The notes beneath the pieces are model-generated. The model was not told where the DNA came from and searched no databases. It saw only the letters and a program-made list of their open reading frames with translations. A stretch of DNA of 56,964 nt, filler included, from Malassezia furfur (lineage: Eukaryota), in the NCBI GenBank assembly GCA_052055015.1. It is 4 parts of 4 records of this genome, joined end to end, with 100 filler letters (N's around TTAATTAATTAA, not from the genome) between each part and the next. Parts side by side here need not be neighbours in the genome. Positions count along the whole stretch, not along the records: positions 14,418 to 28,610 come from JBQJIT010000291.1; 3 more parts are not named here. One strand, written 5' to 3'. Below are positions 14,318 through 52,786 of the stretch, piece after piece. How positions within the stretch are numbered: position 1 is the first letter of the stretch; each line of letters begins with the position of its first letter. The translations under genes were made by a program, and so were the position numbers.

Positions 14318-14417
14318 NNNNNNNNNNNNNNNNNNNNNNNNNNNNNNNNNNNNNNNNNNNNTTAATTAATTAANNNNNNNNNNNNNNNNNNNNNNNNNNN
14401 NNNNNNNNNNNNNNNNN
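14318..14417. other. Assembly gap with artificial linker N44-TTAATTAATTAA-N44
   Basis: 100-nt N block with a six-frame stop spacer; identical to the other two gaps. Confidence 0.97.
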
Positions 14418-16765
14418 GGTGCCGGCGCCGGGCGCACCGCTGGGGCTGCGGGGGACGCAGCCGGCGCCGGGCGTACCGCTGGCGCTGCGCGTACTGCTGG
14501 TGCTGGGCGCACCGCTGGCGCTGGGCGAACTGCTGGTGCTGGGCGCACCGCTGCACTCCCAGGTGCGGTAGACGTTGCCGGCGCCGCGGCCGCAGGCGCC
14601 TTCACTTTGGCCTCTGGCGCGCCAAAGTTGGGGCGGATCGCCGCGCCGCGCGGTGCGGCGGCCGGCACCTGTGCAGGTACCTTGCTTTTGGCGCCTGCAC
14701 CGAGCCGCATCGCACCTGCCCCGCTCGCCGGCTTGGGCACCGGAGCTTCCGCAGGCGCCTTGGGCGCAGCGGCGGGCGCAGCGGCGGGCGCAGCGGCGGG
14801 CGCAGCGGCGGGCGCCGGTGACTCGGTCGACGTCAAGACCACTGCACCTGGCTTCGCTACCCCGGCCGCACTTCCCGGCGCTTCGTCCGCATCGAGCTGC
14901 GCAATCGCCCAGTCGCTCAGCGCCGACGCGGCATGCCCCGCAGTCGCCGACAGGAACGAGAACGCAGAGCGTCCCTCGCTCTGTGCCGCGACAGGCGTAG
15001 TAGCGAGCGTCGGCGCGGGGGGCAGCTCGCTCGACTCGGATGACAGCCCTGACGCATAGGCCTGGATCTTGTCGAGGTACATATACAGCGTCTTCGAGGC
15101 CATCTCACGCACCTCGTGGTTCCGGTCCACAAGGCACGGCGACAGCGCCGGCACGACGTTGCGCGCGGATGCCTCCGCATCGAAGGACGCCTCGTTCGCG
15201 CGAAAGGCCTCGACGCCTGCGAGGCGCGCCTGCTCAAACGCATCCTTGAGGCTGCGCGCAAACGCGGGCACCAGCACGCTCGTGCGCGTCGCTGGCGTCA
15301 CAAACGGCGTCAACTTGCCGAGCAGCTGCGTCGTCTGGATACGCAGCGCCGGCTGCCGGTCCATCTGCGTCTTGGCCAGCTGGCGCAGCAGGTCGTTGTT
15401 CAGCACGCGGCTGCTCAGCTTCGGCGCGAGCAGGGGGAGGCTCTCGAGCACCGCGGCGCGCACCACCTCGTGCGGGTCCTCGAGCCACGTCGCGACCGCC
15501 GGCCACACGCGGCCCATGACCGCGCGCGTGTCGAGGTGCGCGGCGTACAGGTCAAGGTGCTGCAGCAGCGCCGCGCGCATCGGCGAGTACGGCGTGCCAA
15601 ACGCGTCGAGCACCGGCGTGCCGAGCGTGTGCCGCCAGCGCGCGTCCTCGAGCGGCTCGCCGAGGCGCAGCATGAGCGGCAGCAGCACGCGCGTCGACAG
15701 CTCCAGGCCATCGTTCAGGCCATTGGGTATCGGTTTGCTGCGGAAGGCCTCGACGAGCACGGGCAGCACCTTGTACTGCGAAAAGGTGGGCAGCAGTCGC
15801 GGCTGCAGCTGCTCGAGCTCGCCGAGGATCGCCTCTTTCTGCAGCGCATCGGCGAGGCGGAACTCTTCGACGAGCGCACTTGCACGCACCAGCTCGTTCT
15901 CGGTGAGGAAGCCGCCGGGCTCGTTGCCTGCCGCAACGAGGTCCGCGGCCGACAGCCGTGTGTGGGGGTCGGCGTGCACCATCTGCCGCACGAGGGGGTA
16001 CAGCAGCGGGGGGATGCGCCCCGCAGAAAAGGTGCGCAGGTTCGCGGGTACCTGGTCGTTGAATGCGTCGATCGCCAGCACACCGATCGCGAAGCTGTCC
16101 ACTGCATACACGGGCACGTCGGCGACGCGGCTCCAGCCCGCCTCGATCTCGGGCGCGACGCGATCGTTGGCGTGCGGCGGCTGCCCTCCGTAGGTCGCGA
16201 GGAACCCGGCATCGCTTGCCGGCGCCATCGTCTCAAAGCCACCCAGGAGCCATTCGCCGGCCTCCGACAAGAAGACACTGGCCGCGTGGATGTTGCCGTG
16301 GATCGCGCCGACCTGCGTGTGCAGGAACGCGGCTGCGCTCGCAATGTGGCTCACGCCCCACGCGACCCACGCGTCGCTCCCGGGGTCGCGCGCACCCTCG
16401 CGCCAGCCGTCGAGCACCTGCGTCAGCGGCGTTACGCGCTCGACCGCGAGGTAGATGGTGCCGTTCGTCTCGGCCATGTCGAGGTACTTGAGCACGTACG
16501 GGAACCGCAGCGAGCGCAGCTTGCGTACGGCGTTGTGCGCCATGGCGATCTGCGCGGGGTTCGCGCGTGCGCCGTCGAACACAAATACGCTCACGGGCAG
16601 CTGATCTTCCTGCGGGGTGAGCACGCGACCTACCTTGCGCACGCCCTCGTAGAGCCGCCATAGACTCTGGCCCGCATACGATGTGACCTCGTCGCCCACG
16701 GAAATGCCGGGCAGCGGGCCGCCGCCCTTGCCCAGCGCCGACGAGATCTGGCGCAAATAGTCCAT
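14418..16765 (-). CDS. CEX1: SCY1-like pseudokinase with HEAT repeats (Cex1/SCYL1), 3' end lost in the gap
   Basis: Starts MDYLRQIS; kinase-like IHGNIHAASVFLSEAGEWLLGGFE; HEAT region LNNDLLRQLAKTQMD. In-frame 24-nt intron 16610-16633. Confidence 0.88.
14419..14552 (-). repeat. Coding 18-nt tandem repeat (AVRPAP)n
   Basis: Degenerate GGGCGCACCGCTGGCGCT units running into the contig end. Confidence 0.8.
14762..14815. repeat. Coding 12-nt tandem repeat (GGGCGCAGCGGC)x4, encoding AAPA
   Basis: Directly visible perfect tandem units. Confidence 0.85.
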
Positions 16766-19700
16766 GGCACCACAAGCTTCGGAAGAACGAGTGGAGGTGC
16801 CCCTGGCTTCGTCCATGAGCGACGCGTCGCGGATGCACGGCGAGGCGCTTGCGGGCGTCTCGCAGGAGGAGTTGCTGCAGGAGCTGCCCGTCGAGCAGTC
16901 GGACCTGATCCCGCTCGCAGCGCTGGTCGAGCGTCTGTCGAACAATGCGTACCAGACGCTGCAGAGCCTGAGCGACACCACCTCTTCGCTCTCGAACGAC
17001 GCCAAGAAGGCCAAGATCTTTGCGACGGCGATGGACCTGCGCAAGCAGTTTGTCAAGCTGCTCGTGCTTGTGCGCTGGTCCAAGGACGTGGAGCTGCTGA
17101 ACAAGGCGCGCAACGTGATTGCTCTGCTCCTCGACCAACAGTGGGCGCACGAAGACGTCTTCTCCGGACTGACGCAGGCGCGCAAGATCTTGCCGAATGC
17201 GCGCATCTGCGACGCGGATCTCGTCACAGCAATCGATGTGATCCGCACGGGGACGTACCAGCGCCTCCCGGCGTCCATCCGGAACAGCACCGTGCCCAAG
17301 GCGCCCATGACCAACGCCCAGGTCCTCGACGTGCTCCGTGCGCTCGACCAGGTGCTCCGCGTGCGCCTCACCTGCAATACGGTCACGCCGCAGGGCTTTC
17401 ATCTGCAAAAGATCGCCGACGGCAAGGCTTACTTTGCGGTCGAGGGGCTGTACGACGCGTGCCTCACCACCAGTGGGCCTACCGACGAAGACCGCTGGTG
17501 GCTCCTCGACTTTCACTTTGCCGACGCAGCGACCGACGGCGACGAGGATCTCTCAGCCTCGCTCACCACGCCGTACCTCGAAAATGTGTTTGCGGCCGCC
17601 GAAGCCATGCTGAGCGAGCCTACATCGTCGGACGAGCCGATCCTCGTGCGTCTCCACACCTTCTTGGAGCAGCAGGCACTCCAGCGGCAGCTACACATTC
17701 TGCACCACCAGCTGCAGCGCGTGAATCACCTGCACCTGCGCGGCAATGTCCGGTTCTCGCTCGACTTGGCCACGCACACGCTCGAACTGCAGTACTGGGC
17801 GGCCCATGCCTCGGCCTCGGCGCAGGACCGGAATAAGGCGCTCCATCGCCGCCTCCTGCAGGGCAAGCTGCATCTCAAGCTCCATACCGAGACGCTCACG
17901 GGCGCCAACAAGGTCCTCTCGGACTTGCTCTCGGGTAGTACGGCGTCCACGGGACGCAGTCACATCCTGGTCGACTGGGATGTCGACGAGGCCATTCGGG
18001 AGGCGACGAAGACACTCCCGGAGCTCCATTTGGAGCAGCTGGACATCGAGGCGCTCGTTCTCGCCGCCACGGACCGCCATTCGCTCGCGCTGATGAAGAT
18101 CTTCCAGCAGCAGATCGTCGACCACCCCGGGCTCGGCGCGGGGAATGCCGAGCAGTGCGTCCTCCGCTCGCTGTCCAAGCAGGGATTTGGACCGAGGCAT
18201 GCGCTCGAGCTGCAGGTCACCGACAACATCCACATTATGCTCTACGTCTCGCTCATTACGGGGCGCATCGGCATCAAATCGCTCGATCTGATGCAGAGCC
18301 AGCACGACGAAGTGCTCCAGCTCGGCCTGAGCGAGGCCCAAGACGCTGCGCTGCAGCGCATGGCCAACCAGATCAGCGCCAACACCGAAACCCTGGCAGA
18401 GACGCTGCTGACGTTCCGGCTCCAGAGCCTCGCGAAGGAGCTCGAGCTGCAGGCGTCCTGGCTCGGCCTGGCGTACCTGCCCACAATTGCGCTCCGCCCG
18501 GGCGAGCTCGACAAGATTGGCCTGCCGAGCGGCTACCCGCTGCTCTACCTGCCGTTGGGGATTCTGCCGTCGTACTACATGTCGATCTACTTCGTCCCAA
18601 AACAGCCCATCACCATGGCACTCGTCTCGGTGATGTCGATTATGGAGGCCGGCAAGGCGATGCAGGTCATCAGCTCGGTCAAGTGGCTAGACCGCAAGCA
18701 CCTTGCCAACGTCGCCGTCTCGGGCAAGCTGCTGCTCAGTACGCCCAACAAGGCCTGGAGCGAAGAGGGGAATGCCACCTCGTTACGGTACGACCTCACC
18801 TCGGAGGAACTGCAGCTCGCGTACAACTACTGCATCGCGACGGTGGCCTACTCCCACCTGGAAGAGCAGCTGCGTCTCAAACTGATACCCTTCATGCTGG
18901 TCGGAGCTACCACCGACAATACCGCTACCCTGGCCCAGCACGCCGACCCTCTTTTGCCCAGCCTCCGTGTGAGCGCTGCGGAACTCGTCTCGCCCTTCGC
19001 CAGCCTGACCGACTCAAACGTTTCGTTGCAAATCTGTGACTGGTGGCTGCCTGCCGACCGGCGTGTGGAGATTTCGCTACGTATCAAGCTGGAGGCACCG
19101 ATCGACTCAGGACCGATTACCCTGTTCAATGACACCTCGCTCGATCCAGCCACGGGGCAGCTTCGGCACACATCGCGGGACCTGGCGACCAGTGTCGCCC
19201 AGTTCCAGCGCCGGTGGGATCAAGTGGCGCGGATGCTCCTTCTGATCAACACTGTGGCACAGTACAAGTCGGCCCACCACTTCCACATCGCCTTGTCCCA
19301 CGTGGAGAACAATAAGGTGGCCCTGCGCTATGGAGCTACTCCAAGCGAAACCCAACTGTCGGTTTCGATTACCTTCAACGAACTCAACGAGAGGCTGCCC
19401 AAGGACCGGTTTGAACTTGAGTTTGGGGTGCTTGACGATGCCTCGCCGGAAGCAAGCAACCCTCATGAATACCTTGCTGCTTTGATGCAAAACAAGCTGA
19501 ACACCATCGCAAGCTCCACCGCCAATTACTGGAAGGGGCTCATTACAGTACGTTGGCGAACATGCGCTCACCTAGATGCTGGAAAGCACCTTGCCTTTGC
19601 TCTCGCTGCTTGGACCTTACATGCAGCGTTCGGCCACCGACATCGAATGCCCCGAGATCAACATCCAAGACGTCAACTGGTACCAAGTCCGGTTTCTGAA

Positions 19701-20016
19701 CAAGTATGTGAAGAAGACGTCGTCCACGATACTAACGAGCAGTCACACGTTGGACCTCCGCCTGCTGACTGACAACCGACTCCTGATTGTTGACACCCAT
19801 CGAGAGTTTGAGAATGAGCAGGAGGCCAATGAAGCAGCGGACCAACCGAACTCATCTACCTCACTACAAAACCTATGGGCAGAAGTCACGGGGCGCGTAC
19901 ACTCAGACCAAGGCCCCACGGCACGTGCTGACTCCAAGTCACACGTCGTAGTGGCCGAAGTCACCCAAGTGGAAGCCAACCTGGATAAACTGTTCCAATC
20001 GATAAATAAAATATAG
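16764..20016 (+). CDS. MED14: Mediator subunit 14 (Rgr1)
   Basis: LRKQFVKLLVLVRWSK and DLVTAIDVIRTGTYQRLP. Introns 19548-19575 (28 nt) and 19704-19742 (39 nt). Alternative start at 16815. Confidence 0.9.
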
Positions 20017-20261
20017 ATTTTGGAATTATATATTTGAATGATTATAAAATAGAAACAATAATTAAACACATATAAGAAGTAGAAAAGAAAACTCTTTATT
20101 CTTAATAAAAAAATAAAAGTATGAAATGTATAATATTTCAACATAAGGTTTTAAATTATTATAAAATAATATTACATACGTATATTTAATATAATCACAC
20201 ATTTTATGAACAATTGTAATTTTAAAAAATATAAAATTAGAATAAAATAAATATATTTATT
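20001..20261. other. Extremely AT-rich intergenic core, putative centromere
   Basis: Manual count gives 34 G+C in 260 nt (20001-20260, ~13% GC) against >60% elsewhere. Flanking genes show reduced GC. Confidence 0.75.
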
Positions 20262-21144
20262 TTAAACCTGCTTCTTCACTTTTGCTGGATTTCCAAAAGC
20301 AACAGAATTAGCAGGAATATCCTTAGTAACCACACTTCCCGCTCCCTTTTTTATTGTTAGTTTTTTGAATAAAATATTTTCTTACAATTGTGCAATTGTC
20401 CCCGATCGTGATTCCAGCCCTGTTTGTTAAATTTCCACACACATAATCGTTGTATTTCCACCGCTTAAGTTAGTTTTATTTTTTATTCTGACTTACATCC
20501 AGCAATTTTTTCCAATCTTGATTGGTAGAGCGCGCTCCAGCACAGACTGCCGCTCTGTGGGGTTAGTGGAGTGGGTGCCAGCATAGAGGTGAACACTGTG
20601 CATGGTTAGATCATGGTCCTCCTCATGACCTGATAGCAGGTCTGTTGACTTACTTTGGTCCAAAGAGGACACCGTCCCCAATCGTAATCTCTGCACAGTC
20701 CAAGAACGTTGCGTTGAAGTTGCAGTAGAAGGACCCCTCAAACTTCACATTGTCGCCATAGTCACTGTTGCAGGTCAGAACCCATGGAGTCGTACATACA
20801 TCCAAAGCGGGGGCTCGATCTCAATCTTCTGTTCTTGACCATTCTCCAGCTTAAAGATTTTAGCGATCAGCTCTCTGCGGTCACTCCCGGTAATCTCGAG
20901 CTTAGGCTGAGCCAATTCTGGAAAGTTGGCAGGAGGAGACAGATTAAAGGCATGGACAAGCTTCCGGACGGCAATGCGACGTTCGGTGAGCTCCTTGTCA
21001 GTAGGATTGTAGGCCAGACCAAGCAGCATCTAAGACGTAAGTTTTGCGTCTATCACGGATTCTCACCTTTTGCCTTTCAGTCATCTGATCATACTGGTCT
21101 GCATATTTCTTGTCTGCCTCAGCGTAGCGGTCTTCAGCGGTCAT
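20262..21144 (-). CDS. Maltose/galactoside O-acetyltransferase (left-handed beta-helix), 7 exons
   Basis: Spliced: MTAEDRY...TERQK-MLLGLAY...IEPPLWIDYGDNVKF..FYCNFNATFLDCAEITIGDGVLFGPNV...[48 protein letters not shown]. Introns 21030-21066, 20765-20799, 20596-20653, 20464-20496, 20420-20442 and 20346-20385. Confidence 0.92.
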
Positions 21145-21255
21145 TTCGGATAAGAAGGATGGTTTTGCGGAGGATACGATGTAACGAAGCGGGGTTCGCG
21201 TCGGGTCGCGTCTGGCGCGTAAATTGGCTGGCGCGCATCCACTTGCTAGGTGGAA

Positions 21256-23821
21256 TTACGGCCCTGCATACATCCTATGAGCTTTTTGGTAGTCTCGCCG
21301 GACTTCCTCGATGGCCGACGCGCGGTCGTCCGTGACTTTCTCTACCGTAGCCGCAATCGTTTGACGTGCCATGGGCGGAGTGTCTTTGGACAGAAGAGAC
21401 CCATCCACTTGGATCTGCCTGGCGCTCCAACCGTTCAAGAGTTGGTCCACACTCTTCATGTGAGACAAGACTGGTGAGACGGCTTCCTTGCACTTCCATG
21501 AGCCATAGCCACGTACCGACTCCTTCCGGCGGTTGGAGATCGTCTCAAAGATACGCAAGCCCTGTATAATTAGAAACCGCACGTACCTCGATACCGATCC
21601 AGGCGGCATGCAACGCCTCAAAGCAATTCGCTGCCTTCTCCACCAAACTGGCAATGCCTGCGGTCAGTGAACACCACTTACGTTGAAAGAACAACGCCAC
21701 CGAAGTTACATGGGTATCCTTTCCGTGCAAAGAACGTACAAAGGACACCAACGCCGTTTCGGCGTCCGTCAGTTCGTCGCCCAGCTCCTGGGGAGCTGGC
21801 CCCTCCACATCCAGCACCGAGGCCACAACTTCCAGGAAGGTCGAAATCCACGAGGTGGCACGTTTGGGACCACATGAAGTGGCACGCTGGATAGCGTCCC
21901 ATTTGCTCTCATCGTAGCAAGGGATCAGCGTATCGTCTCGTTGATCGCTGAAGCCGCCTTTCGCAACAATAGCAACAAGCCGTTGTACTGTTTTGATTGC
22001 CTGCTTCTTTTCGTGCCCGTCGAGGCCCCCCTGGATCAATTTGGCACGGATCAGGTCGAGTTCAACGAGGGCTCGGGTGCAAGATGTATCCACCCATTTT
22101 TCAAACTCGGAGAGATGCGCGATCTGTGAAAACTTGTTGTTGGAGAACGCTTGACCGATGGCATCGGGGACTTCAAACTGGCTCTGAGCATAAAATTTCT
22201 TAAGGTGGTCGGTATACTGCTTGGCGTAGACTTTGTGGAGAGTACCTCCAAAGGCCGTGTTCCGATCCAAGCCATAATGCGAAGCCGCGTCCCACTGCAC
22301 TGCTTTCAATCCCAAGGCTTCGAAATGGTCTGCAGCTAAGTCAAGAGCACCAAACTGAAGCAGCAGGCGAATCAGCAAAAGACGAAGGTGATAGGCCTTG
22401 CCGCTCTCCGAGACACCATACAACGCGAGGCCCGTTGCGTCGGAAATGCATTCTGTAGTGCTCGAGGCCAGGGTTTCGAAGGCAGCAAGCACGACGAGGT
22501 CATCTCCAATCTGCATCTCGGTGTTAGGAAGCCGTGCTTGATCAAGCGACCGGGCATACTCGCGCAGCAGGCTCGTGGGCTGTGTTGTGGTTTCCTTGGA
22601 ATCCCCCAGCAAATAGTAAATTTTTCTTGCATTCACACAAGTCCTTATCCCATTTTCTGATGCCAAATTGTACTGCGTTCCCTTCACCTTCTCAACGAAT
22701 GCTTTGCTTTCTGGCTCGGTGAGGTTGACCAAATATGGGTGTAGGTCATCGAAGCACGAAGCGCGCGAGCTGAACCGCGAGAAGAATTTGGTCATCAATG
22801 GAACATAGTCCAATCCATGCTTGGTCAAGGCCTGGACGGGGAGTTTCGCATCGCGCGAAAGCCGGAATGCCTCAAGGATGCCAAGATACGAACCCCTGTC
22901 AGCCCATTTGTCCTTTTCGCACGCTGAAATCAGCACACGGACGTCGTGGTCGCACAACGCAGGGGACTCCGCTTTCAGGGATTCGCGCACCAGCGTTTGA
23001 GTGAACAGAGAAATGACGGCCCAATTGCGGTCCCCGTTCTCAATTCGAGAGCGACAATCGTCCAAGATGCGACCAAAGTCCCCATTTGCTTCCCAGGCTT
23101 CACGCAGCAGGAACTGGATGCTCAAACTGTTCTCCACCAGGCGCTTGGGCCCCGGTTCCTGCAGAAGGGCGAGTGCAGACCGGAACTGTTCCTTCCCCAA
23201 CAGCATGTAGAAACGCAGGTATAGGAACAGGGTCTCTTCGGTCAGTTGTGAGACATCCAAGGGGTGATCCTGAATGAGACGGTTTGCGACCTGCAGCGCC
23301 AGAACCGACCCTGGCGGTTTCAGCGATTGGGACTGCGTCAGTGTCGCGCGACGTACATGAAGCACCGCCAGCTGGATATATCGCCAGTAGCTCTGCTTGT
23401 CTTTTTTTGCCTTGAACTGCTTGAGTACCACCTGCTGAGCTCGCTGGTACATGCGCGCTTTCAGCAACGCGGTCAAAGCGTCCTCCGCCATATCCTTGTC
23501 CTTGGGATTGGCTTCGCTGGCAAGGACATACAGCTCTGCAAGTTTCTGGCCCATGCCCAGACGGGGCATGACGAGCGACAAGGGTGGCAGCACGCTCGTG
23601 CTCACATTTCCGCGAAGAAGCTGCTCGACCTGATCTTTGGCCTCGTCTTCCTGCCCCAGCTGGAGTAGCGCAATGGAGCGAAGGGCACCGGCGAGCGGGA
23701 GCCAGCCTTTGCGCAGCACTTGGTCCGCCTTGGTCAAGGCCAAGGGGTAGTTTCCTGTGTCTAGCGCATTGTAGATGTCGGAGCACCTGTACTGATCCAA
23801 CACGCTCCCACGAGTCGACAT
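21256..23821 (-). CDS. MDM20: NatB N-acetyltransferase auxiliary subunit (Mdm20/Naa25)
   Basis: IYNALDTGNYPLAL, DRGSYLG, FSSRASCFDDL and LGLKAVQWDAASH motifs. Introns 23333-23356, 21658-21681, 21562-21586 and possibly 21493-21516. Confidence 0.87.
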
Positions 23822-23854
23822 GAGCAGAGACAAGCTGGTGATTCCTCCACCTGC

Positions 23855-25177
23855 ATGGATGACCAGCCGAGCGACACCTCGTTGTCTCTTCCGAGCCCGC
23901 GGCACCTCGCAGGGGCCGGGGCGGCTCCTGCATCGGTAGCCGACTCGCCTACCCTATCGATTCGCCAACAGCGGGAGCGCACTATTCACCTCCCTGAATG
24001 CAGCTCCCCTTTGTTTCTCGCCGACCGCACGTCGCCCACCCCCGCACCGTCACCGAAGCGGCCACGTCGTGCGCGCCTCACAGCCGAAGAACGCGAGCAG
24101 AGACAAGCGGAGCATGTGCGAGAACTGGCCGAGCGGCAACGATGGCGCGAAGCCAACCGGATCCGGCAAAGGCGCTCGGACACCATGCGTGATTTAATTA
24201 TTCGGCTCGACGCTGAGGCCGCACAGGGACCACTTGCGCCGGTGCTCCCCCAGCTGCGGGAAAAGTGGGAATCGGACGGAGCCACTGTGCATATCTCGAC
24301 TCCCTCGCTCGTGCAGGCGCCGAACAAGACGGGTGTCGTGGTATTTGAACGCCGTGTGCGGTCGGAATACGACCCTGTCCAGAAGCTATGGACCCCGCTC
24401 GACGAGGAGCAAGTCCTGCGTGAAGCGACACGCCTGCACATTGCTGCGCCCGAGGCACTGCAAGATTTGGTGCGCCGCGGATGTCTCGCCGACGAGCTCG
24501 TGCACGCCGTGCCCCCCGCACTGGGCCCCAGCGTACATGTGGAGACGCCGGTGCGGCACGTCCTGGTGGTGCTGGGCCTCGACGCCTACCTCAAGCAGCT
24601 GCGCACCGCACAGCACCGCGCGTATACCGAGCATGTGCGGCAGCGAGTACAGCATGGTCAAAGCAGTACGCGTCTGCAGCTCCCCAGTGAGGAAGATGCG
24701 CGCGCCGAAATTGACCAGGCCCTGCTTCGTCTGCAAATGCTCCACGCCTGCTACGTGGTGCAGATACCGCAGGTGCACGACGCGGTCGACTACCTGTATT
24801 CCATTGCGTGCGACGTCTCTATACGTCCCTACAAGCTGCTCGAGGCCCGGCGTGACGCACCCGTGCGTGCTTCGCGCACCATTACGGGGCAGTCCAATCT
24901 GGCCACGTTCCAAGCGATGCTCGAGCAGATCCCACGCTGCACTCCCGCAGCCATTTATGCCATCACCGAACGATACCCCACCTTTCATTCGCTGATGGCG
25001 GCCTTTGCCTCGAAAACACCCGAGGAGGGCACGGCGCTGTTGAGCTCGCTCGAGGTACGTCAACGGCTAACGCAGTGTCAAAGCGGACGAAGTACGCGGC
25101 GTCTCGGCCCGCAACTGGCGCGGCGTATCTACGATGTCTTTACGAACGAAAACGGCGAGGCGCCCATCGACGCATAG
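23855..25177 (+). CDS. EME1: Mus81 partner Eme1/Mms4 (ERCC4-like domain plus HhH)
   Basis: RVRSEYD...WTP, LLRLQM, C-terminal AMLEQIPRCT...AITERYPT...RRLGPQLARRIY. In-frame 21-nt intron 25055-25075. Confidence 0.8.
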   Translation: MDDQPSDTSLSLPSPRHLAGAGAAPASVADSPTLSIRQQRERTIHLPECSSPLFLADRTSPTPAPSPKRPRRARLTAEEREQRQAEHVRELAERQRWREANRIRQRRSDTMRDLIIRLDAEAAQGPLAPVLPQLREKWESDGATVHISTPSLVQAPNKTGVVVFERRVRSEYDPVQKLWTPLDEEQVLREATRLHIAAPEALQDLVRRGCLADELVHAVPPALGPSVHVETPVRHVLVVLGLDAYLKQLRTAQHRAYTEHVRQRVQHGQSSTRLQLPSEEDARAEIDQALLRLQMLHACYVVQIPQVHDAVDYLYSIACDVSIRPYKLLEARRDAPVRASRTITGQSNLATFQAMLEQIPRCTPAAIYAITERYPTFHSLMAAFASKTPEEGTALLSSLEVRQRLTQCQSGRSTRRLGPQLARRIYDVFTNENGEAPIDA

Positions 25178-25178
25178 G

Positions 25179-26540
25179 CTACACGGACGGCACCGGCGCC
25201 TCGCCCAGATGGAGGAACGAGGCGGGGTAGCGCATACGGAACTGCACGGACGCCAGCGCGTCCTGTGCGTCGCGTGCCATACGCACGTCGGAGAAAAAGG
25301 CCTGCGCACTGTCGAGCACCTGCCGGTCCTTGGCCGAGAACCCACTCTCGATCCGGTCGACGTAGGCGCCCTCGGTGAATAAGACGTGGGCGGGCGCCAA
25401 GGAAGGCGCTTCCCAGCCATACAGGTTCGAGATGGACTCGTACATTTCGTAGCGGAACGACTCGTACGACGTCTTGTGTGTCTGTCCTCGGTCGGTCCAT
25501 GCGCCACGCAGCTCGCGTGGCCAGCCGCCGGTGAACATGGACGAGTTCAGCTTGAGTCGCTGCGACTCCTCCGATTCATTCAGCACCGGGCCGCTTCCGA
25601 TCCAACGGATGTCCAGCTGGAGGAGCCGCGACGCACCCATCTTTTCCAGCAACAGGTCCTCGCCCTCGACACTCAGCTGCTGGAAAAACGGCCGGAGCCG
25701 CGAGGCCATAATGTCTGTTGGGCGGTAGGAAAACTTGCGTGTGTCGTACCGAAGGTAGGTGACGCCGGGCGTCCAGTCGGGGTCAAACACATCCTGCGAC
25801 AGATCGATCTGGGTGTTGGAATTCTGTACAAGGTAGGCGTGCAGGAAGCTCCCCGGGCTCGTGCTCCCGACACACAGCGGCTCCAGCACATCGATCGGCA
25901 TGGGCAGCCCTGTGAGCTCGCTTTGGGGATCGACGCCGGTGATGTGCAAGTACCGCAGCCGGCGCCGAAGCCTCGGTACGCGCTTCTTCCACGTTGATGG
26001 CACGGTGTAGGCGCCGCGTGCCGCGTTCGTATTGGGGTACGGCGGAAAGATGGTGCGCAGCAGACTTTCGTTCCCATTGTACGTCAGCCGAAGGCTGATG
26101 GGCGACACTTGGTCCAGACACGCGGCAAACGCCTGCAGCTCGGCACTTCCGAGCGAGAGCGCATCCAGGTTGGGAAAGTACGTGAGGAACTCGTGCTCGC
26201 TGACCATGCGCTGCCGCTCGTCGGCAGGCAGTTCGGCGAGGTAGGTAAGCAGGTCGGTGGTCGCCAGTTCCGTGTTGACCAACAGGATTCGGGTATACTT
26301 GGCCGGGTTCCTGCTCGGCACGGACACTGTCTCTTGCGCATCACCCGCGGCCTGGAGGGCACACAAAAACTGCAAGAGGCACACGAGCGACTCGACCGAC
26401 GTGAGGGAGATGGACCGCCAGCGGGCTTCCTTGGTGCAGGTGCACGCCAGCTTCGATACGTATGCCAGCGACCTTGCCGTACGACTGTCTGCGTTCGCGG
26501 CGCGCACGAAGATGCTGCGGAGCAGTTCAGACGGGAGCAT
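25179..26540 (-). CDS. Hypothetical protein with F-box-like N-terminus
   Basis: 453-aa ORF; MLPSELLRSIF...LAYVSK resembles the start of an F-box. No other recognisable motif. Confidence 0.6.
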   Translation of the reverse strand: MLPSELLRSIFVRAANADSRTARSLAYVSKLACTCTKEARWRSISLTSVESLVCLLQFLCALQAAGDAQETVSVPSRNPAKYTRILLVNTELATTDLLTYLAELPADERQRMVSEHEFLTYFPNLDALSLGSAELQAFAACLDQVSPISLRLTYNGNESLLRTIFPPYPNTNAARGAYTVPSTWKKRVPRLRRRLRYLHITGVDPQSELTGLPMPIDVLEPLCVGSTSPGSFLHAYLVQNSNTQIDLSQDVFDPDWTPGVTYLRYDTRKFSYRPTDIMASRLRPFFQQLSVEGEDLLLEKMGASRLLQLDIRWIGSGPVLNESEESQRLKLNSSMFTGGWPRELRGAWTDRGQTHKTSYESFRYEMYESISNLYGWEAPSLAPAHVLFTEGAYVDRIESGFSAKDRQVLDSAQAFFSDVRMARDAQDALASVQFRMRYPASFLHLGEAPVPSV

Positions 26541-26638
26541 GGTGCATGGTGGGTGCGGGGTTCCTCTGATAAGCGCACGGACGTCGATTGTACCATCGAA
26601 TTACATACGCACTTGACCTTCCCTACGGTGATCGAAAT

Positions 26639-26737
26639 GGCAGGGTAGCAAAGTGGTCTAATGCAGCGGCCTTAAGCAGCCGAGTGTTTTACACTCGCGA
26701 GATCCGCCATTCGCGGGTTCGAACCCCGCCCTTGCCA
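26639..26737 (+). tRNA. tRNA-Leu(TAA), atypical, with probable intron 26677-26701
   Basis: Acceptor GGCAGGG/CCTTGCC plus discriminator A; D-arm GCAAAGTGGTCTAATGC; CT-TAA-G loop with anticodon at 26673-26675; T-arm GCGGG-TTCGAAC-CCCGC; T-rich terminator downstream. Confidence 0.85.
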
Positions 26738-26746
26738 TTTATTTTT
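26738..26746 (+). terminator. RNA polymerase III T-tract terminator of the tRNA
   Basis: TTTATTTTT immediately after the discriminator base. Confidence 0.7.
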
Positions 26747-28484
26747 CCAGGAGCTGCACGGCCACCGGACCGTAAGCGTGCGCCTGGTGCAGGTGCAGCG
26801 CCCCGGCCGTAGCCAGCACGAGCAGATGCCACACTGGTGAGCGATGCACGTACGAGCATTCGCCGCATGGCGCGCGGGGTGCTTTGGCGCGACGAGCTGG
26901 TCAAACGTGAGCCGCCGGGTCGCCGACGTCTCGCACAGGAGCCGCACGTACACGAGAAAGTCGTGCGTCTCGGGCTCGACCTGCGCAGTATAGGGCGCCG
27001 CCTCGGGCACCTCCGAGACTGCATGAGCCAATACAACCCACCATCAAAGCGGGCATCCTCAGGGCCCTGGCCCATCCACGACGGCACCAACGACGATCGC
27101 GCACTGACCACCGGCGACGCAAGGCGCGCACTGGCTCCGGAGTCGCGGGGTCTGGTGAGCAAAAAACGTACCTGCGTAGCTCGGGCAGCTCGCGCGAGAG
27201 GTCCGGCGAGGGCAGCGAGTAGGCGCCGCCATGCAGCACGCTCGAGAAACTGTCGTTCCAGTGAGCGTCGCTACGGCTTTGGGGGGTCATACCTGGCGCC
27301 TGCGCCGCGCCCAGGTGGCTCCAGGGGTACACGGCGAGCGCCGGGTCTACATCGCTCCCGTCCAATGCACGGCCTACCTCGGGCGACGGCGGCGGCAGCT
27401 CACTGGGCTCGAGCGGCGCAAGGTCCATCGGCTCGGCGTCGTGCGGCGAACGCTGCCGCACGGCCCACTCGTGCTTGCGCGCCTGCGCGCAGTGCTGAAA
27501 GTGGGATGCGAGTGACGCGAGGCGCTGCCCGACAGTGCGCTGCCACAGCGACTCGCGGTGTGGGCTCGTGAGCGCGCCTAAGTGAGAACGGCACGTACAC
27601 AACCATGCAATAGGCCCATGCGGCGCTGCATCGGCGATCGTGTACCAGGCCGGCTCGCGCTGCGGCGGGGTGCATCGCTGTGCCCACTCCTCGGGTGTGT
27701 AGCCGATGCGTTGGTCGCTGCGGCATACCAAAGGCCGCTGGGCGGCCGCGTGCTGCAGACACACGGCGCGGTAGTTGTTGTCCGGCTCGGCCGCCGGCAG
27801 CGGCAGGCGGCTCAGGTCTGCGCGGGCCTGCGGCGTGCGGTCCAAGACAAAGTCGGGGGCCGCAGGCATGTCGCGCGGCCCCTCGACGAGTAGGTCGAGG
27901 TCCATGGGCTCGCTGAGGTCCAGCGGGGCGCCGAGCTCCGTAGATGCCCACGACGTCTCGGCATGGTCCGTGCGAGGCGGTGTGGGCGACGGCAGGGTGC
28001 GGTGCGGGGCGAGGAGCGTCGCACGCGCCGGTGCCGGCGTGCGTATGCGCATGCGGTGCACGGGGTCGTACAGGAGGGTGCCTATGTCGTCAAGCGCGTA
28101 CGTATACGACGACGCCGGGGGGCACTTGTGCAAGAGGTGCCGCAGCTGTGCCTCGGTGGTGTGCACGTCCTGTGCAATGCATGGGCGCCGGAGGCGTTTC
28201 CACTCGCGTGCTGTGCGGCGCACGTCGCGAGCCCATGCCTCGAGCTGCAGCTGAAAGATGCGCGCGGCGCCGAGGAGCACAAAACTCGTCTGGACGAGCA
28301 TGCGCGGCGTGGTGGAGAGATGGGCGGCGAGACTGCATTACGGGCATGCGTACCAGACCTGTGCGACGTCCACGCCGAGAATATGGCGCATCTTGAGGCG
28401 CACATGGCACGACGACGTGCCGAGGGTCGCGGCGATCCTGCATCAGTGCCCCACGCACCATACACAGTCGGCGCTCGAGGCCAT
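26739..28484 (-). CDS. REC8: Meiotic cohesin kleisin Rec8 (Rad21/Rec8 family)
   Basis: Spliced N-terminus VWIAATLGTSS...ILGVDVAQVC...SFVLLGAARIF and C-terminal winged helix HDFLVYV...LTFDQLV...AANALWHLLVLATAG.LHLHQAHAYGPV. Introns 28438-28458, 28333-28353, 27578-27598 (tentative), 27152-27171, 27019-27041 and 26834-26853. Confidence 0.8.
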
Positions 28485-28610
28485 AGCGGGCGCTTCTGCA
28501 GCATGGCATTATATAGGCTCTACGGATGGTATGTGGCACGGTGGTGCGGCTCGGCCCGCTGCCGCTGTGCGGCCCGACCCGCTGCCGCCGCCGCGCGCAC
28601 CGCTGCTGCG

Positions 28611-28710
28611 NNNNNNNNNNNNNNNNNNNNNNNNNNNNNNNNNNNNNNNNNNNNTTAATTAATTAANNNNNNNNNNNNNNNNNNNNNNNNNNNNNNNNNN
28701 NNNNNNNNNN
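28611..28710. other. Assembly gap with artificial linker
   Basis: N44-TTAATTAATTAA-N44. Confidence 0.97.
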
Positions 28711-32716: not shown

Positions 32717-34974
32717 CTATGGCGATGTGGAGGCGTCTACGAACGCGGCGGCCTGCGCGGCGTCGACCTCGGAGCGGTGCGCGGCGTCCTCGGTGTGCGT
32801 AATGAGGCCGAGTTCGAGGCGGCCACGCAGTGCATCGTTCCATAACGAGGGGCAGAAGGCCAGGAGATGTTTCTTGAAGCGCGCCAGGAACCTGCGTTAG
32901 TGGACCTACGCACGCATTGTACGGCACGGCTTCCTCGAGCTGGGTCAGTCGGGTCACATACCTCGGCGGCCGCGGCACGGTATGCATGCAGCGCACGCAC
33001 GACCAGTGCCGAATCCGGCGAGGGCACACGTACGAGCGCTTGTAGCGCTACCTGCATCGCCTCGCACGTCTCGGTGATACGCTCGGTGCCGTACACCGAC
33101 GCCTCAAAGTCTTGCACAATGTGCGCGAGGCGCAGCACGCCACCGCCTCGCACAGGTATCTCTGTACGTTCCGCTTCCTCTGCATCTTCGTCGGGCGTTG
33201 CGTCCGAGTCTGAGTCGGTACGCGCCTTCTTGTTCGGTGTGGTCGGTGCGCTTGCGCCGCCTGCCGCGGACGCCTGGGGCTTGCGCGCCGCGAACGCCGC
33301 CGCACATGCCTCGCGTACGCTACGCGCACGATGCTCGACTTGTTCGGGTGTGCTGAGGAACTGCGCGAGGACAGGGTGCAGCTCCGGCAAGTCGGCACGC
33401 TCTGGTGCCAGGAAGCGCCATTTGACCGCGTTCTTCACGCCGTGGATCGCAGGATTGAAGCTGAGGTTTGGCGCATACCACCCCTCTGGATCGCCGTCAG
33501 GATCCGCGTCCATGAGGTCCATGGCGTCCACAAGACGGTCCATATCCGCTTGTTGCGCGTCGGTGGGAATTGTGGGGTGCGTGCGCACTTCCGTGCCGTC
33601 CTTCGCCGGCACGCGGTCCAACGGCGGGAACGCAAAGCGCTTGACGTCCTCGCGGAACGGCACACGCACCATACAGAAACAGTCCATCTCCTGCTCAACG
33701 AGCGGCGCGAGCACACACAGTTTCGGGTCGGCGTGTGCGCGCGACACCCAGCGGCACAACAGGTAGACGTCCTTGACGAGCGCCGCCTGCACGAGGCTGG
33801 AGAGTGCAATGTGGGCGCGCGGCGACTTGGGATTCGGGACAACATAGGACGTCTCGCCGAGGTGGTACTCGCGGCGGTACGTCGATGCATGCACAAAGTG
33901 CAGGATTTCTAGGCCGGCCTGTGTGTCGAGCGGCTGCTCCATGGCGTGCTGCATCGGCACGAGCGAGGCACCCAGCTTGAACGCCCGCTGGAACGACGCA
34001 TGGCTCTCCTCTGGGAGTGGCTCGAGCTGATCGAGGTTGTCCTCGTGGTGAAGCACATCGTCCACCTTGTAGTACACGCGCCGCGCATCCACAGGCGTCT
34101 CAAGTCCTTTGCGCACCTTGCGCTGTGACATGGGCCGTTGCACCGCCGTGGCTTTGAGTACCTGAACGGGGATCGACAGCGTCCGCTGCGGATCACCATC
34201 CGCTGCACCAAACGTGAGCTGCACACTCGTCGGTGCTGACTTGGCCAACTGGGTATTGGGCAGCAGTGCCTGCTCCTCGGCGTCGTCGGCGCTCGCAAAC
34301 GCCGCATGCGGCAGGTCCTGGAGCATGGTGCGCCAGAACCCCACGTTGAACCACGCAACTGAATGCGGCACGTCAGTCTTGTTCGTGTGCGTCGGATCCG
34401 CAGGAAAGTCGAAGCCCATGACGCGCAGCTGGATCGCATCCTGTGCCAGCCGCGCCTTGATCGTGTCGACGTCGGCTGTATTGAGGAGCGTATCGGCGCG
34501 GGTGACGAGGTACACGATGCGCGTCCACGCCGGCGATGGTTCGCCGTAGTTCTTTTCCATCATCCCCACGATCGTGACAATCAGGGCGTCGAGTGCTGCG
34601 TGAGCCGAGGCACGTACGGTCGCACCGCGTTTCGCGGCGGGCGGGGCGCAATGCGTTGAGCACATCGAGCGTCGCGAGTGTCGGGCGCGACGGCGGCCAC
34701 ACTTCATCCACGCCCTCGTAGCCCTCCGTGACGCCATTGCGCCGCACGATGTTGTTCGTGCGCTCCGAGCCGTAGGTCACAATGCTCACCTTGATGGTCG
34801 AGAGGCGGCGCAACATCTGGGTGAATCGGTGCAACCTACCATCTCCAGCACACGCAGCGACACAAATGCCGTGCTCCGATCAAGCCGCGAGCGCTCGCCA
34901 TGGGTGGGGCCCATGGCGCTCGACACGTCCAGCACAAAGGTCACCAGCGTGCGCTGGCCGAGCGACGCGGCCAT
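32717..34974 (-). CDS. KU80: Ku80
   Basis: vWA start VTFVLDVSSAMG, core VPFREDVKRFAFPPL and C-terminal LGLITHTE...AAAF. Introns 34817-34839, 34596-34617, 32940-32961 and 32892-32913. Confidence 0.9.
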
Positions 34975-35009
34975 GGTCGTCTGCAACGCGCCTCCACATC
35001 GCACAGGCC

Positions 35010-37442
35010 ATGCCCACGACGCCGGGAGGACGCGGGGGCCCATCGACGCCCAAGCGCAAGGCGGGCGGCGCAGGTGCGTCGCCGTCGCGCAAGCGCACAC
35101 TCACAGGGCAACCGACGCTCTTGTCGTTTCTGGGCACGTCGCCCAGCGCGAAACGCAGCGCTGCGCCCGAGGTGGACGACCCGTTTGCCGGCGACCGCCT
35201 CTCGGACGAGGCACTTGCCCGGCACCTTGCCGGCGGCAATGACCAGCTGGATGCGGACGAAGCGTATGCGCGGGCCCTGCAAGAGGCATGGAATGTCGAG
35301 GACAGCGGTGTACAGGAGGCAAGCACGGCACAGCCTCTGCAGGTAGACGGCGCGGCGCAGGACGCCGACGCGGTGCAGGATGCCGACGCGGTGCAGGACG
35401 CCGATGCGACGCAGGACGTCGATGCGATACCGGAGGTCAACACAATGCAAGATACCCCTTTGACGCCGGTGGGCCCGTTGCCCTCCGCGCCTGCCAAGGC
35501 GCGCGTCGACGTCGCTGCCCTTGACGCGTGCATAGCGGCCATCGACCTTGCCGAGGACCCCGAGACGTTCTCGACCGACATCGACACAACGCACTGGCCA
35601 CACGATGGCGGCGTGGTACATGTACCGTATGCGCTCTTTGCCCACGGCTTTGCGCGACTCAACGGCGAGCGCTCGCGCATCCTCATCCTGCGCATCCTCA
35701 CCAACCTGCTGCGCCTCGTGCGGGCCTACGAGCCGGACCAGCTCGTGCCCGCGCTGTACCTACTGAGCAACGAGATCGCCCCGTCGTACGCCGGCATCGA
35801 GCTCGGCGTCGGCGGGGCGCTGCTACAAAAAGCGACGATGCAAGTGTCGGGCCGTACGGCTGCCTTTCTCCGGCGCGCCTGGACGCAGTATGGCGACGCG
35901 GGCGACGTCGCGTTCGTGGCATGCCGCGGCATGACGCAGCTCGTACAGCATGAGCCACTCACCGTCGGCAAGGTGTACGCGACGCTGTGGGCGATTGCGC
36001 GCGCCAGCGGTGCGCGGTCTATGCGCGAGAAACAGCGTCTCGTGAGCGGTCTGCTGCTGGCCAGCCGCGGCGAGGAGCGGCGTTTCGTGGTTCGCACACT
36101 GAGTGCCAACCTGCGCATCCACGCGATGCGTACCACCGTCCTCGCCGCGCTCGTGCGGGCATACGTGCTGGACGACGCGGCGTTTGTGGGCGTCGCTGCG
36201 GCCGAGGCCGAGGCGCTTGCGAAGCGCGCCTATGCGCGGCACCCCAATTGGCAAGGGATGGTCGACGCGCTGCGGGCCGGTGACCTCACTGGCTTGGACC
36301 TGGCCGTGGGTGTGCCTGTGACGCCGATGCTCGGTAGCATCACGCGCTCGCTCGACGCCGTGCACGCGACGATGCGTGACGCGCCGTTCGTGAGCGAGTT
36401 CAAGTACGACGGGCAGCGCGTCCAGCTGCATGTGGATGGCGAGCGTGTACACATCTTCAGCCGGTACCTCGAGACGATCACAGATAAGTACCCCGACGTG
36501 GTCGCAATGGTGCCCCAGCTGCAGACGCATGCGCAGGCATTTATCCTCGACGCCGAGGTCGTTGCCGTGTCCGACACGGGCGTCTTACCATTCCAGACGC
36601 TCGCGGGGCGCGCGCGCAAGGATGTGGCGCTTGACGCGGTGCAGGTGCGTGTGTGTGTGTATGCGTTCGACGTGCTCTACCTCGACGGGACGTCGATGCT
36701 CGGCGCGACGCTGCGTGAGCGCCGCGCGGCGCTGCGGCGCCATTTCCCCGCCTCGGTGCGTGCCACAGCGGCGCATGCGGGCTTTGCGTTTGCGACATCG
36801 TCCGAGGCGACGTCGGCGGACGAGGTTGCCGCCTTCTTCCACGAGGCGTGTGCCCAGCACTGCGAAGGCGTCATGGTCAAGAGCCTGGACCATGTGCCTG
36901 AGGGGCCGCTCGCGACGTACGAGCCGGACAAGCGCACCGAGGCGTGGCTCAAGGTAAAGAAGGACTACTTGGCGGACCTCGGCGATGCGCTCGACCTTGT
37001 GCCGATCGGCGCATGGCACGGCATGGGGCGCAAGACGGCGTTCTGGAGCCCGATCTTGCTCGCCGTGTATGACCGCGAGACGGGCATGTACGAGGCGGTG
37101 TGCAAGTGCATGAGCGGCTTCTCGGACGCGTTTTACCAGGAGCTCAACGCGCGCTATGGCTCTGCGCAGGATCCTCCGCCGTCGTTTGCGCACGACGGGC
37201 TGTACGCGCTTGGCGACGTGCGCCCTGCCGTGCTCTGGCCACCGACTGAGGTGTGGGAAATCCGCGGCGCAGAGATCACCGCATCGCCGACGTACCCCGC
37301 GGCCACCGACCTCGCGGTGCCCGGCCGCGGGCTTTCTGTGCGCTTCCCGCGCTTCATCCGGCGCCGCGACGACCGTCCGCCGGAGAGCGCCATGACGCCG
37401 ACCGAACTGGCCAAGCTGTACCTCGCGCGCGCTACAGGGTAG
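35010..37442 (+). CDS. ATP-dependent DNA ligase I-family paralogue (Adl1-like)
   Basis: Adenylation motif EFKYDGQR, LDAE, FDVLY, CEGVMVK, WLKVKKDY and SVRFPRF. PIP-box-like QPTLLSFL at 35109-35132. Confidence 0.9.
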   Translation: MPTTPGGRGGPSTPKRKAGGAGASPSRKRTLTGQPTLLSFLGTSPSAKRSAAPEVDDPFAGDRLSDEALARHLAGGNDQLDADEAYARALQEAWNVEDSGVQEASTAQPLQVDGAAQDADAVQDADAVQDADATQDVDAIPEVNTMQDTPLTPVGPLPSAPAKARVDVAALDACIAAIDLAEDPETFSTDIDTTHWPHDGGVVHVPYALFAHGFARLNGERSRILILRILTNLLRLVRAYEPDQLVPALYLLSNEIAPSYAGIELGVGGALLQKATMQVSGRTAAFLRRAWTQYGDAGDVAFVACRGMTQLVQHEPLTVGKVYATLWAIARASGARSMREKQRLVSGLLLASRGEERRFVVRTLSANLRIHAMRTTVLAALVRAYVLDDAAFVGVAAAEAEALAKRAYARHPNWQGMVDALRAGDLTGLDLAVGVPVTPMLGSITRSLDAVHATMRDAPFVSEFKYDGQRVQLHVDGERVHIFSRYLETITDKYPDVVAMVPQLQTHAQAFILDAEVVAVSDTGVLPFQTLAGRARKDVALDAVQVRVCVYAFDVLYLDGTSMLGATLRERRAALRRHFPASVRATAAHAGFAFATSSEATSADEVAAFFHEACAQHCEGVMVKSLDHVPEGPLATYEPDKRTEAWLKVKKDYLADLGDALDLVPIGAWHGMGRKTAFWSPILLAVYDRETGMYEAVCKCMSGFSDAFYQELNARYGSAQDPPPSFAHDGLYALGDVRPAVLWPPTEVWEIRGAEITASPTYPAATDLAVPGRGLSVRFPRFIRRRDDRPPESAMTPTELAKLYLARATG
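35357..35428 (+). repeat. Coding 18-nt tandem repeat (QDADAV)x~4
   Basis: GCAGGACGCCGACGCGGT-like units. Confidence 0.75.
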
Positions 37443-42889: not shown

Positions 42890-42989
42890 NNNNNNNNNNN
42901 NNNNNNNNNNNNNNNNNNNNNNNNNNNNNNNNNTTAATTAATTAANNNNNNNNNNNNNNNNNNNNNNNNNNNNNNNNNNNNNNNNNNNN
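42890..42989. other. Assembly gap with artificial linker
   Basis: N44-TTAATTAATTAA-N44. Confidence 0.97.
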
Positions 42990-44774: not shown

Positions 44775-44935
44775 CACGTGGCCCACGTGGCCCAGATGGC
44801 CAGATCTCGTTTTTTTCGGGGTATCATTGCAATTCTCTTCCTATCCCCCGCCGCCACGCCCCATTCGATTGCAATTTTTTTGGCACCACGCACGCGCGTG
44901 TACGCGAAGGACGACACGCGACGGGAGTTGGCGCC

Positions 44936-50092: not shown

Positions 50093-50187
50093 AATTCGAC
50101 GTAGACGTGCAAGGACCCTGGGTTACTTACGTAGGCACCGATCTAATCGGGTGCACGGGCCAGGCGGGACTTCTTCTCGTTGTCACC

Positions 50188-52442: not shown

Positions 52443-52786
52443 GGTAATTTGGTAGATGAAGAACGCAAGAGCGGTAAAAACCGCCGTGCCTTTCGCCCCA
52501 TCTATATAAAGTGTTTGGCCAGCCTGTGCGCTCCCAACTTTCGGCGTGGCGGCGCAACCTCGCCTAGAGCGCTATGCCATCCACCAATCACGCGTGACAC
52601 CCAAAAAAAAGACGCGACGCCAAAAATCTCAGGGGCCGCCATAGGACCCATCCATTTTTCTCGGCCGAATTATTGCTGCGGCACGCGGTGCTGGTGCGCG
52701 ATTGGGACGATCGCGTTGTTTGTCGGCTTTACGACGGGCGTTGCGTGTGTCTGTGCACGCCCGGCTGGTGAAGCGAGCACGCAGGA

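What the first reader, a model, noticed from the sequence alone, without database searches (positions are those of the whole stretch)
20001..20500. Probable centromere: ~13% GC core in a GC trough between convergent genes
Seen: 20001-20260 has 34 G+C in 260 nt in a window that is otherwise >60% GC. It is non-repetitive and lies between the stop codons of MED14 (20016) and the acetyltransferase (20262). AT richness grades outward: the nearest introns are nearly pure A/T, while spot counts give about 55% GC in MDM20 and about 68% in the ligase. Known: Malassezia centromeres are short regional centromeres with a sub-kb AT-rich core at the chromosomal GC minimum. Inference: this is such a core, with the kinetochore domain overlapping the ends of active genes.
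Basis: partly seen in the sequence, partly recalled or inferred. Interest (0 to 1): 0.8.

Follow-up and report, generated by a model that had tools for sequence, protein, structure and literature searches.

The report
Known centromere CEN2 of Malassezia furfur
This short A/T-rich stretch is a centromere (the chromosome's spindle attachment site) of the skin yeast Malassezia furfur that was already mapped experimentally; the only extra is that this hybrid genome holds a second copy with the same length and base make-up but an unrecognisable sequence.

Summary
The 245-bp gap between the MED14 stop (20016) and a maltose-acetyltransferase stop (20262) has 13.1% GC and no repeats. Both ChIP-qPCR primers published for M. 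furfur CEN2 match it with 0 mismatches (20067-20094 +, 20267-20284 -; 218-bp amplicon). CENP-A was enriched there at 1.13-1.40% of input, against 0.035-0.087% at the control. Primers for the orthologous M. sympodialis CEN2 and M. slooffiae CEN6 land in the same gene end.

Corrections: the window is four separate contigs joined by linkers, so the ligase lies on another contig. The GC gradient is one-sided, and the MED14 introns are not AT-rich.

Extra: the 13.7-Mb assembly is a hybrid. A second CEN2 on another contig has the same flanking genes, length (246 bp) and GC (14.6%), yet aligns no better than shuffled sequence, while nearby intergenic DNA is 84-95% identical. CEN1 and CEN4 pairs behave similarly. 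This fits a centromere defined by composition rather than sequence. Verdict: already known, low interest.

The parts
20017..20261 (.). Centromere core, M. furfur CEN2: 245-bp convergent intergenic gap, 13.1% GC, non-repetitive
   Evidence: published as MfCEN2 (PMC7025860 Table 2; CENP-A data)
20067..20094 (+). Exact match to published primer MF2 R1 (MfCEN2 ChIP-qPCR)
   Evidence: 0 of 28 mismatches; next best site 11
20267..20284 (-). Exact match to published primer MF2 F1, inside the last exon of the acetyltransferase; amplicon 20067-20284 (218 bp)
   Evidence: 0 of 18 mismatches; next best site 3
20262..21144 (-). Maltose O-acetyltransferase-like gene, 218 aa, 7 exons (21144-21067, 21029-20800, 20764-20654, 20595-20497, 20463-20443, 20419-20386, 20345-20262); its 3' end is drawn into the AT-rich zone
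   Evidence: gene model inferred from splice signals, open in both copies; Pfam Mac PF12464 E=4.6e-9 on exon 2, the other 3 exon pieces tested gave no hit
20262..20496 (-). AT-rich shoulder: exons 5-7 and introns 4-6 (33, 23, 40 nt; 21%, 35%, 15% GC). M. sympodialis CEN2 and M. slooffiae CEN6 primers match here with 2 mismatches each
16764..20016 (+). MED14 (Mediator subunit), 1061 aa, introns 19548-19575 and 19704-19742; its stop codon marks the sharp left edge of the core
   Evidence: Pfam Med14 E=1e-47; model
21256..23818 (-). MDM20 (NatB auxiliary subunit), spliced; ends approximate; 55% GC, GC3 rising away from the core
   Evidence: Pfam NatB_MDM20 E=5.7e-54
23858..25177 (+). EME1-like gene (start approximate)
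   Evidence: Pfam EME1-MUS81_C E=3.2e-12
14418..28610 (.). Contig G000:C291, the only part of the window physically linked to the centromere; its homoeologue is G000:C299 (84% identity over 13.9 kb)

Best explanation
This is the core of centromere 2 of Malassezia furfur, a short regional centromere. CENP-A nucleosomes sit on a ~0.25-kb unique, very AT-rich intergenic stretch and seed the kinetochore (CENP-A enrichment shown in strain CBS14141 for this amplicon; not shown in this genome). Lower-level centromeric chromatin probably extends into the 3' ends of the flanking genes (inferred from M. sympodialis Mtw1 ChIP-seq and MfCEN7 flanks). Identity seems to rest on position, length and AT-richness rather than exact sequence (inferred: the second subgenome's copy keeps all three but not the sequence). 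The core turns over fast, and an AT-favouring substitution pattern leaks into nearby silent sites and introns, mainly on the acetyltransferase side (pattern shown; cause, such as mutation bias or lack of GC-biased gene conversion, inferred). The assembly is an M. furfur hybrid; this copy is of the CBS14141 (P2) type.
For: Both MfCEN2 primers match with 0 mismatches, 218 bp apart, facing each other. CENP-A-FLAG 1.13-1.40% input at CEN2 vs 0.035-0.087% control in 9 of 9 measurements. Published core 168 bp, 15.4% GC; 169-bp windows with that GC occur within this stretch. Of 6 primers for orthologous centromeres in 3 other species, 2 match this gene end at 2 mismatches (MsyCEN2 R1, MslCEN6 RP; next-best sites 5-6), in line with the paper's Table 3. 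One primer each for the other six MfCENs: 5 of 6 found (CEN1, 3, 4, 7 exact; CEN6 1 mismatch). All 9 centromere loci fetched have 250-nt minima of 12.8-16.0% GC, against 38.4% or more in 17 of 17 background stretches. Homoeologue C299: 246 bp, 14.6% GC, same genes. GC at fourfold sites falls towards the core in both copies: right side 0.83/0.84 to 0.32/0.26, left 0.90/0.92 to 0.69/0.55.
Against: No ChIP or Hi-C data for this genome were available, so activity here is carried over from CBS14141. The contig is 14 kb, so 'chromosomal minimum' could not be tested here; the background sample is 170 kb plus 42 kb of 13.7 Mb. 4 of the 6 other-species primers gave no clear match (Mg 6F 5 mismatches at the expected site; 3 others 7-8). 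The MfCEN5 R1 primer was not found at up to 2 mismatches. The published 12-bp motif is a figure logo I could not see; my own k-mer test found no 5- to 8-mer above the family-wise null in 9 cores.
Confidence: 0.96

Rival explanations
1. The locus descends from CEN2 but is inactive in this hybrid, with only one homoeologue or a neocentromere in use.
For: No functional data for this genome. Centromere inactivation is documented in M. furfur. Hybrids are aneuploid or carry ~20% LOH, and only one copy each of CEN6 and CEN7 was found.
Against: Inactivated M. furfur centromeres lost their AT-richness, whereas both copies here stay at 13-15% GC. Each homoeologous chromosome needs its own centromere unless fused.
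Confidence: 0.025
2. An ordinary AT-rich bidirectional terminator or replication-origin region between convergent genes, with no centromere role.
For: It lies between two stop codons and must also contain both 3' UTRs and terminators (from gene layout). No non-centromeric convergent gap of similar length was available as a control.
Against: Exact match to the CENP-A-enriched amplicon; no comparable trough in 17 of 17 background stretches.
Confidence: 0.01
3. A mitochondrial insert or an assembly chimera.
For: The mitochondrial contig C86 is about 30% GC and has 250-nt windows down to 14.8%.
Against: Best BLASTN hit of the core on 30,000 of 32,212 bases of C86 is 35.6 bits, against a mean best of 36.5 for 100 shuffles. 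An independent contig shows the same layout. The amplicon was amplified from another strain. Reads could not be examined.
Confidence: 0.005

Closest known systems
Malassezia furfur CEN2 (CBS14141 Chr2:68,763-68,931; PMC7025860)
   Same: Same locus: both primers match exactly; same composition.
   Different: The AT-rich gap is 245 bp here against a 168-bp published core (boundary definitions differ); here it lies in a hybrid genome beside a second, sequence-diverged copy.
Orthologous centromeres M. sympodialis CEN2, M. slooffiae CEN6, M. globosa CEN6 (PMC7025860 Table 3)
   Same: Listed as syntenic with MfCEN2 (partial); MsyCEN2 R1 and MslCEN6 RP primers match the same acetyltransferase end at 2 mismatches.
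   Different: Their intergenic-side primers have no match (7-8 mismatches); the M. globosa primer match is inconclusive (5 mismatches); synteny is only partial per the paper.
Short regional centromeres of CTG-clade yeasts (Candida albicans type)
   Same: Unique, repeat-free, few-kb CENP-A domains in RNAi-deficient yeasts (paper's discussion).
   Different: The Malassezia core is a sub-kb extreme AT trough pressed against active genes.
Saccharomyces point centromere CDEII (recalled, no call)
   Same: Short, over 85% AT, fast-evolving element.
   Different: No flanking conserved elements seen between the two copies apart from gene ends; A/T tracts of 5 or more are not enriched (2 seen vs 4.9 expected).

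Membership tests
Malassezia short regional centromere (MfCEN2) | Identity with a published, validated centromere | tested here: met
   2 of 2 MfCEN2 primers, 0 mismatches, 218-bp amplicon
Malassezia short regional centromere (MfCEN2) | AT-rich intergenic core under 1 kb | tested here: met
   245 bp, 13.1% GC between two stop codons
Malassezia short regional centromere (MfCEN2) | Single global GC minimum of its chromosome | tested here: inconclusive
   Minimum of its 14-kb contig and below 17 of 17 sampled stretches; assembly has 1856 contigs; an all-A/T 28-mer scan listed only the first 100 of 356 rows, from a poly-A run and the mitochondrial contig. Published for CBS14141.
Malassezia short regional centromere (MfCEN2) | CENP-A or kinetochore enrichment | not testable with these tools
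   Published for this amplicon in CBS14141: 1.13-1.40% vs 0.035-0.087% input; not available for this genome
Malassezia short regional centromere (MfCEN2) | No direct or inverted repeats | tested here: met
   Only short 2-copy matches, none shared by the two copies; folding z = -0.01
Malassezia short regional centromere (MfCEN2) | Enrichment of the 12-bp AT-rich motif | tested here: inconclusive
   The motif is given only as a figure logo, not seen; no 5- to 8-mer passed the family-wise null in 9 cores, a test weaker than a PWM scan
Malassezia short regional centromere (MfCEN2) | Synteny with orthologous centromeres of other species | tested here: met
   2 of 6 primers from 3 species match the acetyltransferase end at 2 mismatches; 1 inconclusive; 3 no match; agrees with Table 3
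Mitochondrial insert (NUMT) | Similarity to the mitochondrial genome | tested here: not met
   35.6 bits vs shuffled mean best 36.5 on 30,000 of 32,212 bases of C86
Known structured RNA | Rfam match | tested here: not met
   0 matches at E up to 0.1 in 19000-22000

The most novel reading that the evidence does not exclude
M. furfur centromeres are specified by AT content and length with no needed motif. Hybrids then run two sets of centromeres whose cores are unrelated in sequence (CEN2: 245/246 bp, alignment at shuffle level) under two CENP-A alleles in one nucleus, and unequal CENP-A loading biases which parent's chromosomes are lost (CEN6 and CEN7 found once, as P2-type primer matches; the P2-type CEN5 primer not found). 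That would be a natural test of sequence-independent centromere identity and centromere competition in a fungus.
Probability: 0.25. Interest if true: 0.5.

Novelty: already known. Interest (0 to 1): 0.13.

Why it matters
The locus itself adds nothing: MfCEN2 was predicted and validated by CENP-A ChIP-qPCR in 2020 (PMC7025860). The side result has modest value. The paper leaves the role of its 12-bp motif open. Paired centromeres in one hybrid show length and AT content kept while the sequence is overwritten, which narrows what can be required and gives allele-distinguishable targets for ChIP. Rapid centromere sequence evolution is itself a known theme in fungi (passage in PMC10977804).

Tried and rejected
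Mitochondrial insert: rejected. Structured RNA: no Rfam hit. Hairpin or cruciform element: folding equals shuffles, z = -0.01. Repeat-based centromere: none. Shared exact motif or A-tract enrichment in 9 cores: none above null. Genome-wide count of AT troughs by an all-A/T 28-mer: uninformative, listing cut and filled by a poly-A run and the mitochondrial contig, and this core's longest A/T run is only 26. The ligase as part of the gradient: rejected, other contig. Looking for the flanking genes in the PNAS 2023 Dataset S2: 0 hits for 6 terms. MfCEN5 R1 primer: not found. Earlier scan notes: none. Read support and expression were not examined, and a whole-genome GC scan was not done.

Full report
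Observation. 20001-20260 has 34 G+C in 260 nt as stated; the gap between the two stop codons, 20017-20261, has 32 in 245 (13.1%) and is the lowest 250-nt window of real sequence. The left edge is sharp (52% to 12% between adjacent 50-nt bins); the right edge has a shoulder of 20-44% to about 20500. There is no repeat structure, no Rfam match and no folding beyond shuffles.

The window is not one piece. It is four contigs of 14.0-14.3 kb joined by 100-nt linkers. The locus lies on G000:C291, in an assembly of 13.68 Mb and 1856 contigs.

Flanking genes. MED14 (Pfam E=1e-47), MDM20 (5.7e-54) and EME1 (3.2e-12) are confirmed; 4 of the 7 frames in that scan had a Pfam family, the fourth a HEAT-repeat gene. 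My MED14 model has two 3' introns and stops at 20016. The acetyltransferase model has 7 exons, 218 aa, and stops at 20262; exon 2 matches Pfam Mac, and 3 other exon pieces gave no hit. Its introns 4-6 are 21%, 35% and 15% GC, while its introns 1-3 and both MED14 introns are 43-57%. At fourfold-degenerate sites GC falls towards the core in both genome copies: on the right from 0.83/0.84 (4.5-7 kb) to 0.32/0.26 (within 300 nt, n=34), on the left from 0.90/0.92 to 0.69/0.55 (n=29).

Identification. Sankaranarayanan et al. 2020 (PMC7025860; I saw the abstract, sections 8 and 10-15, search passages, and supplements 5, 6 and 11; no figures) list MfCEN2 at Chr2:68,763-68,931, 168 bp, 15.4% GC and give its qPCR primers. 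Both match the window exactly: MF2 R1 at 20067-20094 (+) and MF2 F1 at 20267-20284 (-), a 218-bp product. CENP-A-FLAG recovered 1.13-1.40% of input there, against 0.035-0.087% at the control, in 9 of 9 measurements. Table 3 of the paper makes MfCEN2 orthologous to M. sympodialis CEN2, M. slooffiae CEN6 and M. globosa CEN6. Of 6 primers for those, 2 match the acetyltransferase end at 2 mismatches, 1 has 5 mismatches at the expected site, and 3 have no meaningful match.

Controls in this genome. I searched one primer for each of the other six MfCENs; 5 of 6 were found: CEN1, CEN7, CEN4 and CEN3 exactly, CEN6 with 1 mismatch; CEN5 was not found at up to 2 mismatches. All 9 centromere loci fetched have 250-nt minima of 12.8-16.0% GC. 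None of 17 nuclear 10-kb stretches (every tenth contig, C10-C170) goes below 38.4%, and none of the 3 other window contigs below 44.4%. This is a sample of about 210 kb, not a genome scan. The core resembles the mitochondrial contig no more than shuffles do.

The second copy. A search of the own genome found exactly two places, C291 and C299; the contigs align at 84% over 13.9 kb. A doubled genome with diverged copies fits the P1 x P2 hybrids of Theelen et al. 2022 (PMC9040865; passages and section 9 seen): about 14 Mb, 89% parental similarity, ~20% LOH. That C299 is P1-derived is inference; no P1 sequence was compared. The C299 gap is 246 bp at 14.6% GC. Its alignment score to the C291 gap is reached by 30 of 200 dinucleotide shuffles and 27 of 300 base shuffles. 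Four other mostly non-coding stretches on the contig are 84-95% identical (z 11-37) and all 8 introns score above shuffles. Caveats: those four are 5' regions, likely constrained; one (21145-21330) includes about 75 nt of MDM20 coding sequence; no convergent gap was available as a like-for-like control. The CEN1 pair (416/415 bp, 16.1/18.3% GC) and CEN4 pair (455/466 bp, 16.7/18.0%) keep weak but real similarity (z 4.1 and 3.4, 0 of 200 shuffles), so full saturation holds for 1 of 3 pairs. Fourfold-site divergence is 0.44 within 300 nt (n=63) against 0.31-0.36 beyond 1.2 kb, suggestive only. CEN6 and CEN7 gave one copy each, which may be LOH, chromosome loss, collapse or a missed fragment; CEN3's partner was not searched.

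Mechanism. Shown elsewhere: CENP-A occupies this amplicon in CBS14141; at MfCEN7 it drops to 0.10-0.30% input 750 bp out, still above control; in M. sympodialis Mtw1 covers 3.2-5.1 kb including active genes; inactivated M. furfur centromeres lost AT-richness. Shown here: position, length and AT content are kept between subgenomes while sequence is not, and no 5- to 8-mer is enriched across 9 cores beyond a family-wise null. Inferred: both copies are active, identity depends on composition and chromatin inheritance, and an AT-favouring substitution process spreads into adjacent silent sites. The published 12-bp motif could not be scanned because it is a figure.

Novelty. The centromere is already known. 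For the hybrid pairing: 'centromer' does not occur in the main text of PMC9040865 and once, in a legend, in the 2026 preprint PMC13405305 (passages). Dataset S1 sheet C of PMC10410736 (passages and both parts of the dataset seen) lists centromeres of 12 assemblies and none for M. furfur P1. Searches for Malassezia + centromere (20 of 118 listed) and Malassezia + centromere + hybrid + CENP-A from 2021 (12 of 18 listed) showed no title on it. Figures, that paper's SI Appendix (Fig. S3; not opened as a whole, its text gave no hits) and subscription papers could hold it. PMC10977804 (passages) treats rapid centromere evolution in fungi as established. Searches were seen as listings only. The comparison with Saccharomyces CDEII is recalled.

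Verdict. Observation largely confirmed, interpretation supported, novelty none for the locus; interest 0.13. The boldest open reading, motif-free centromeres competing in a hybrid, has probability 0.25 and interest 0.5.

Noticed in passing
window 14318-14417, 28611-28710, 42890-42989: Three 100-nt N-TTAATTAATTAA-N linkers; the window is four unlinked contigs, so features across them are not neighbours.
   Followed up: yes
G000:C299 5271-5516 (L003): Homoeologous CEN2 core, 246 bp, 14.6% GC, alignment to this core at shuffle level; neither MfCEN2 primer matches it (3 and 12 mismatches), so the copies can be told apart by PCR.
   Followed up: yes
G000:C451/C369 (L007, L008) and C173/C180 (L011-L013): Paired CEN1 and CEN4 cores, near-equal length and GC, strongly diverged.
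   Followed up: partly
G000:C446 (L015), C248 (L009), C588 (L016): CEN6 and CEN7 found in one copy only; CEN3 found, partner not searched; MfCEN5 R1 primer not found. Possible LOH or chromosome loss.
   Followed up: partly
window 20346-20496 (-): Acetyltransferase introns next to the core are tiny and A-rich: a predicted 23-nt intron kept at 23 nt in both copies, and introns 4 and 6 end in AAG rather than YAG. Predicted only, no RNA evidence.
   Followed up: partly
window 32737-37442: A Ku70/80-domain gene (-) and an ATP-dependent DNA ligase gene (+) lie head to head.
   Followed up: no
window 49124-51190: Two tandem aldo/keto reductase frames.
   Followed up: no
window 44123-46804 (+): 893-aa frame with a sub-threshold DBD_Tnp_Mut match (24.1 bits, cut-off 25); may be a transposase-derived DNA-binding protein.
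   Followed up: no
window 52772-55309 (+): SUN-domain (Sad1/UNC) protein on the fourth contig, unlinked to the centromere.
   Followed up: no
G000:C86 (L017-L019): Mitochondrial contig, 32,212 bases, about 30% GC, with frames resembling respiratory-chain genes (names recalled).
   Followed up: partly
window 14424-14815: GC-rich 18-nt and 12-nt tandem repeats in the 3' part of a HEAT-repeat gene at the contig end.
   Followed up: no
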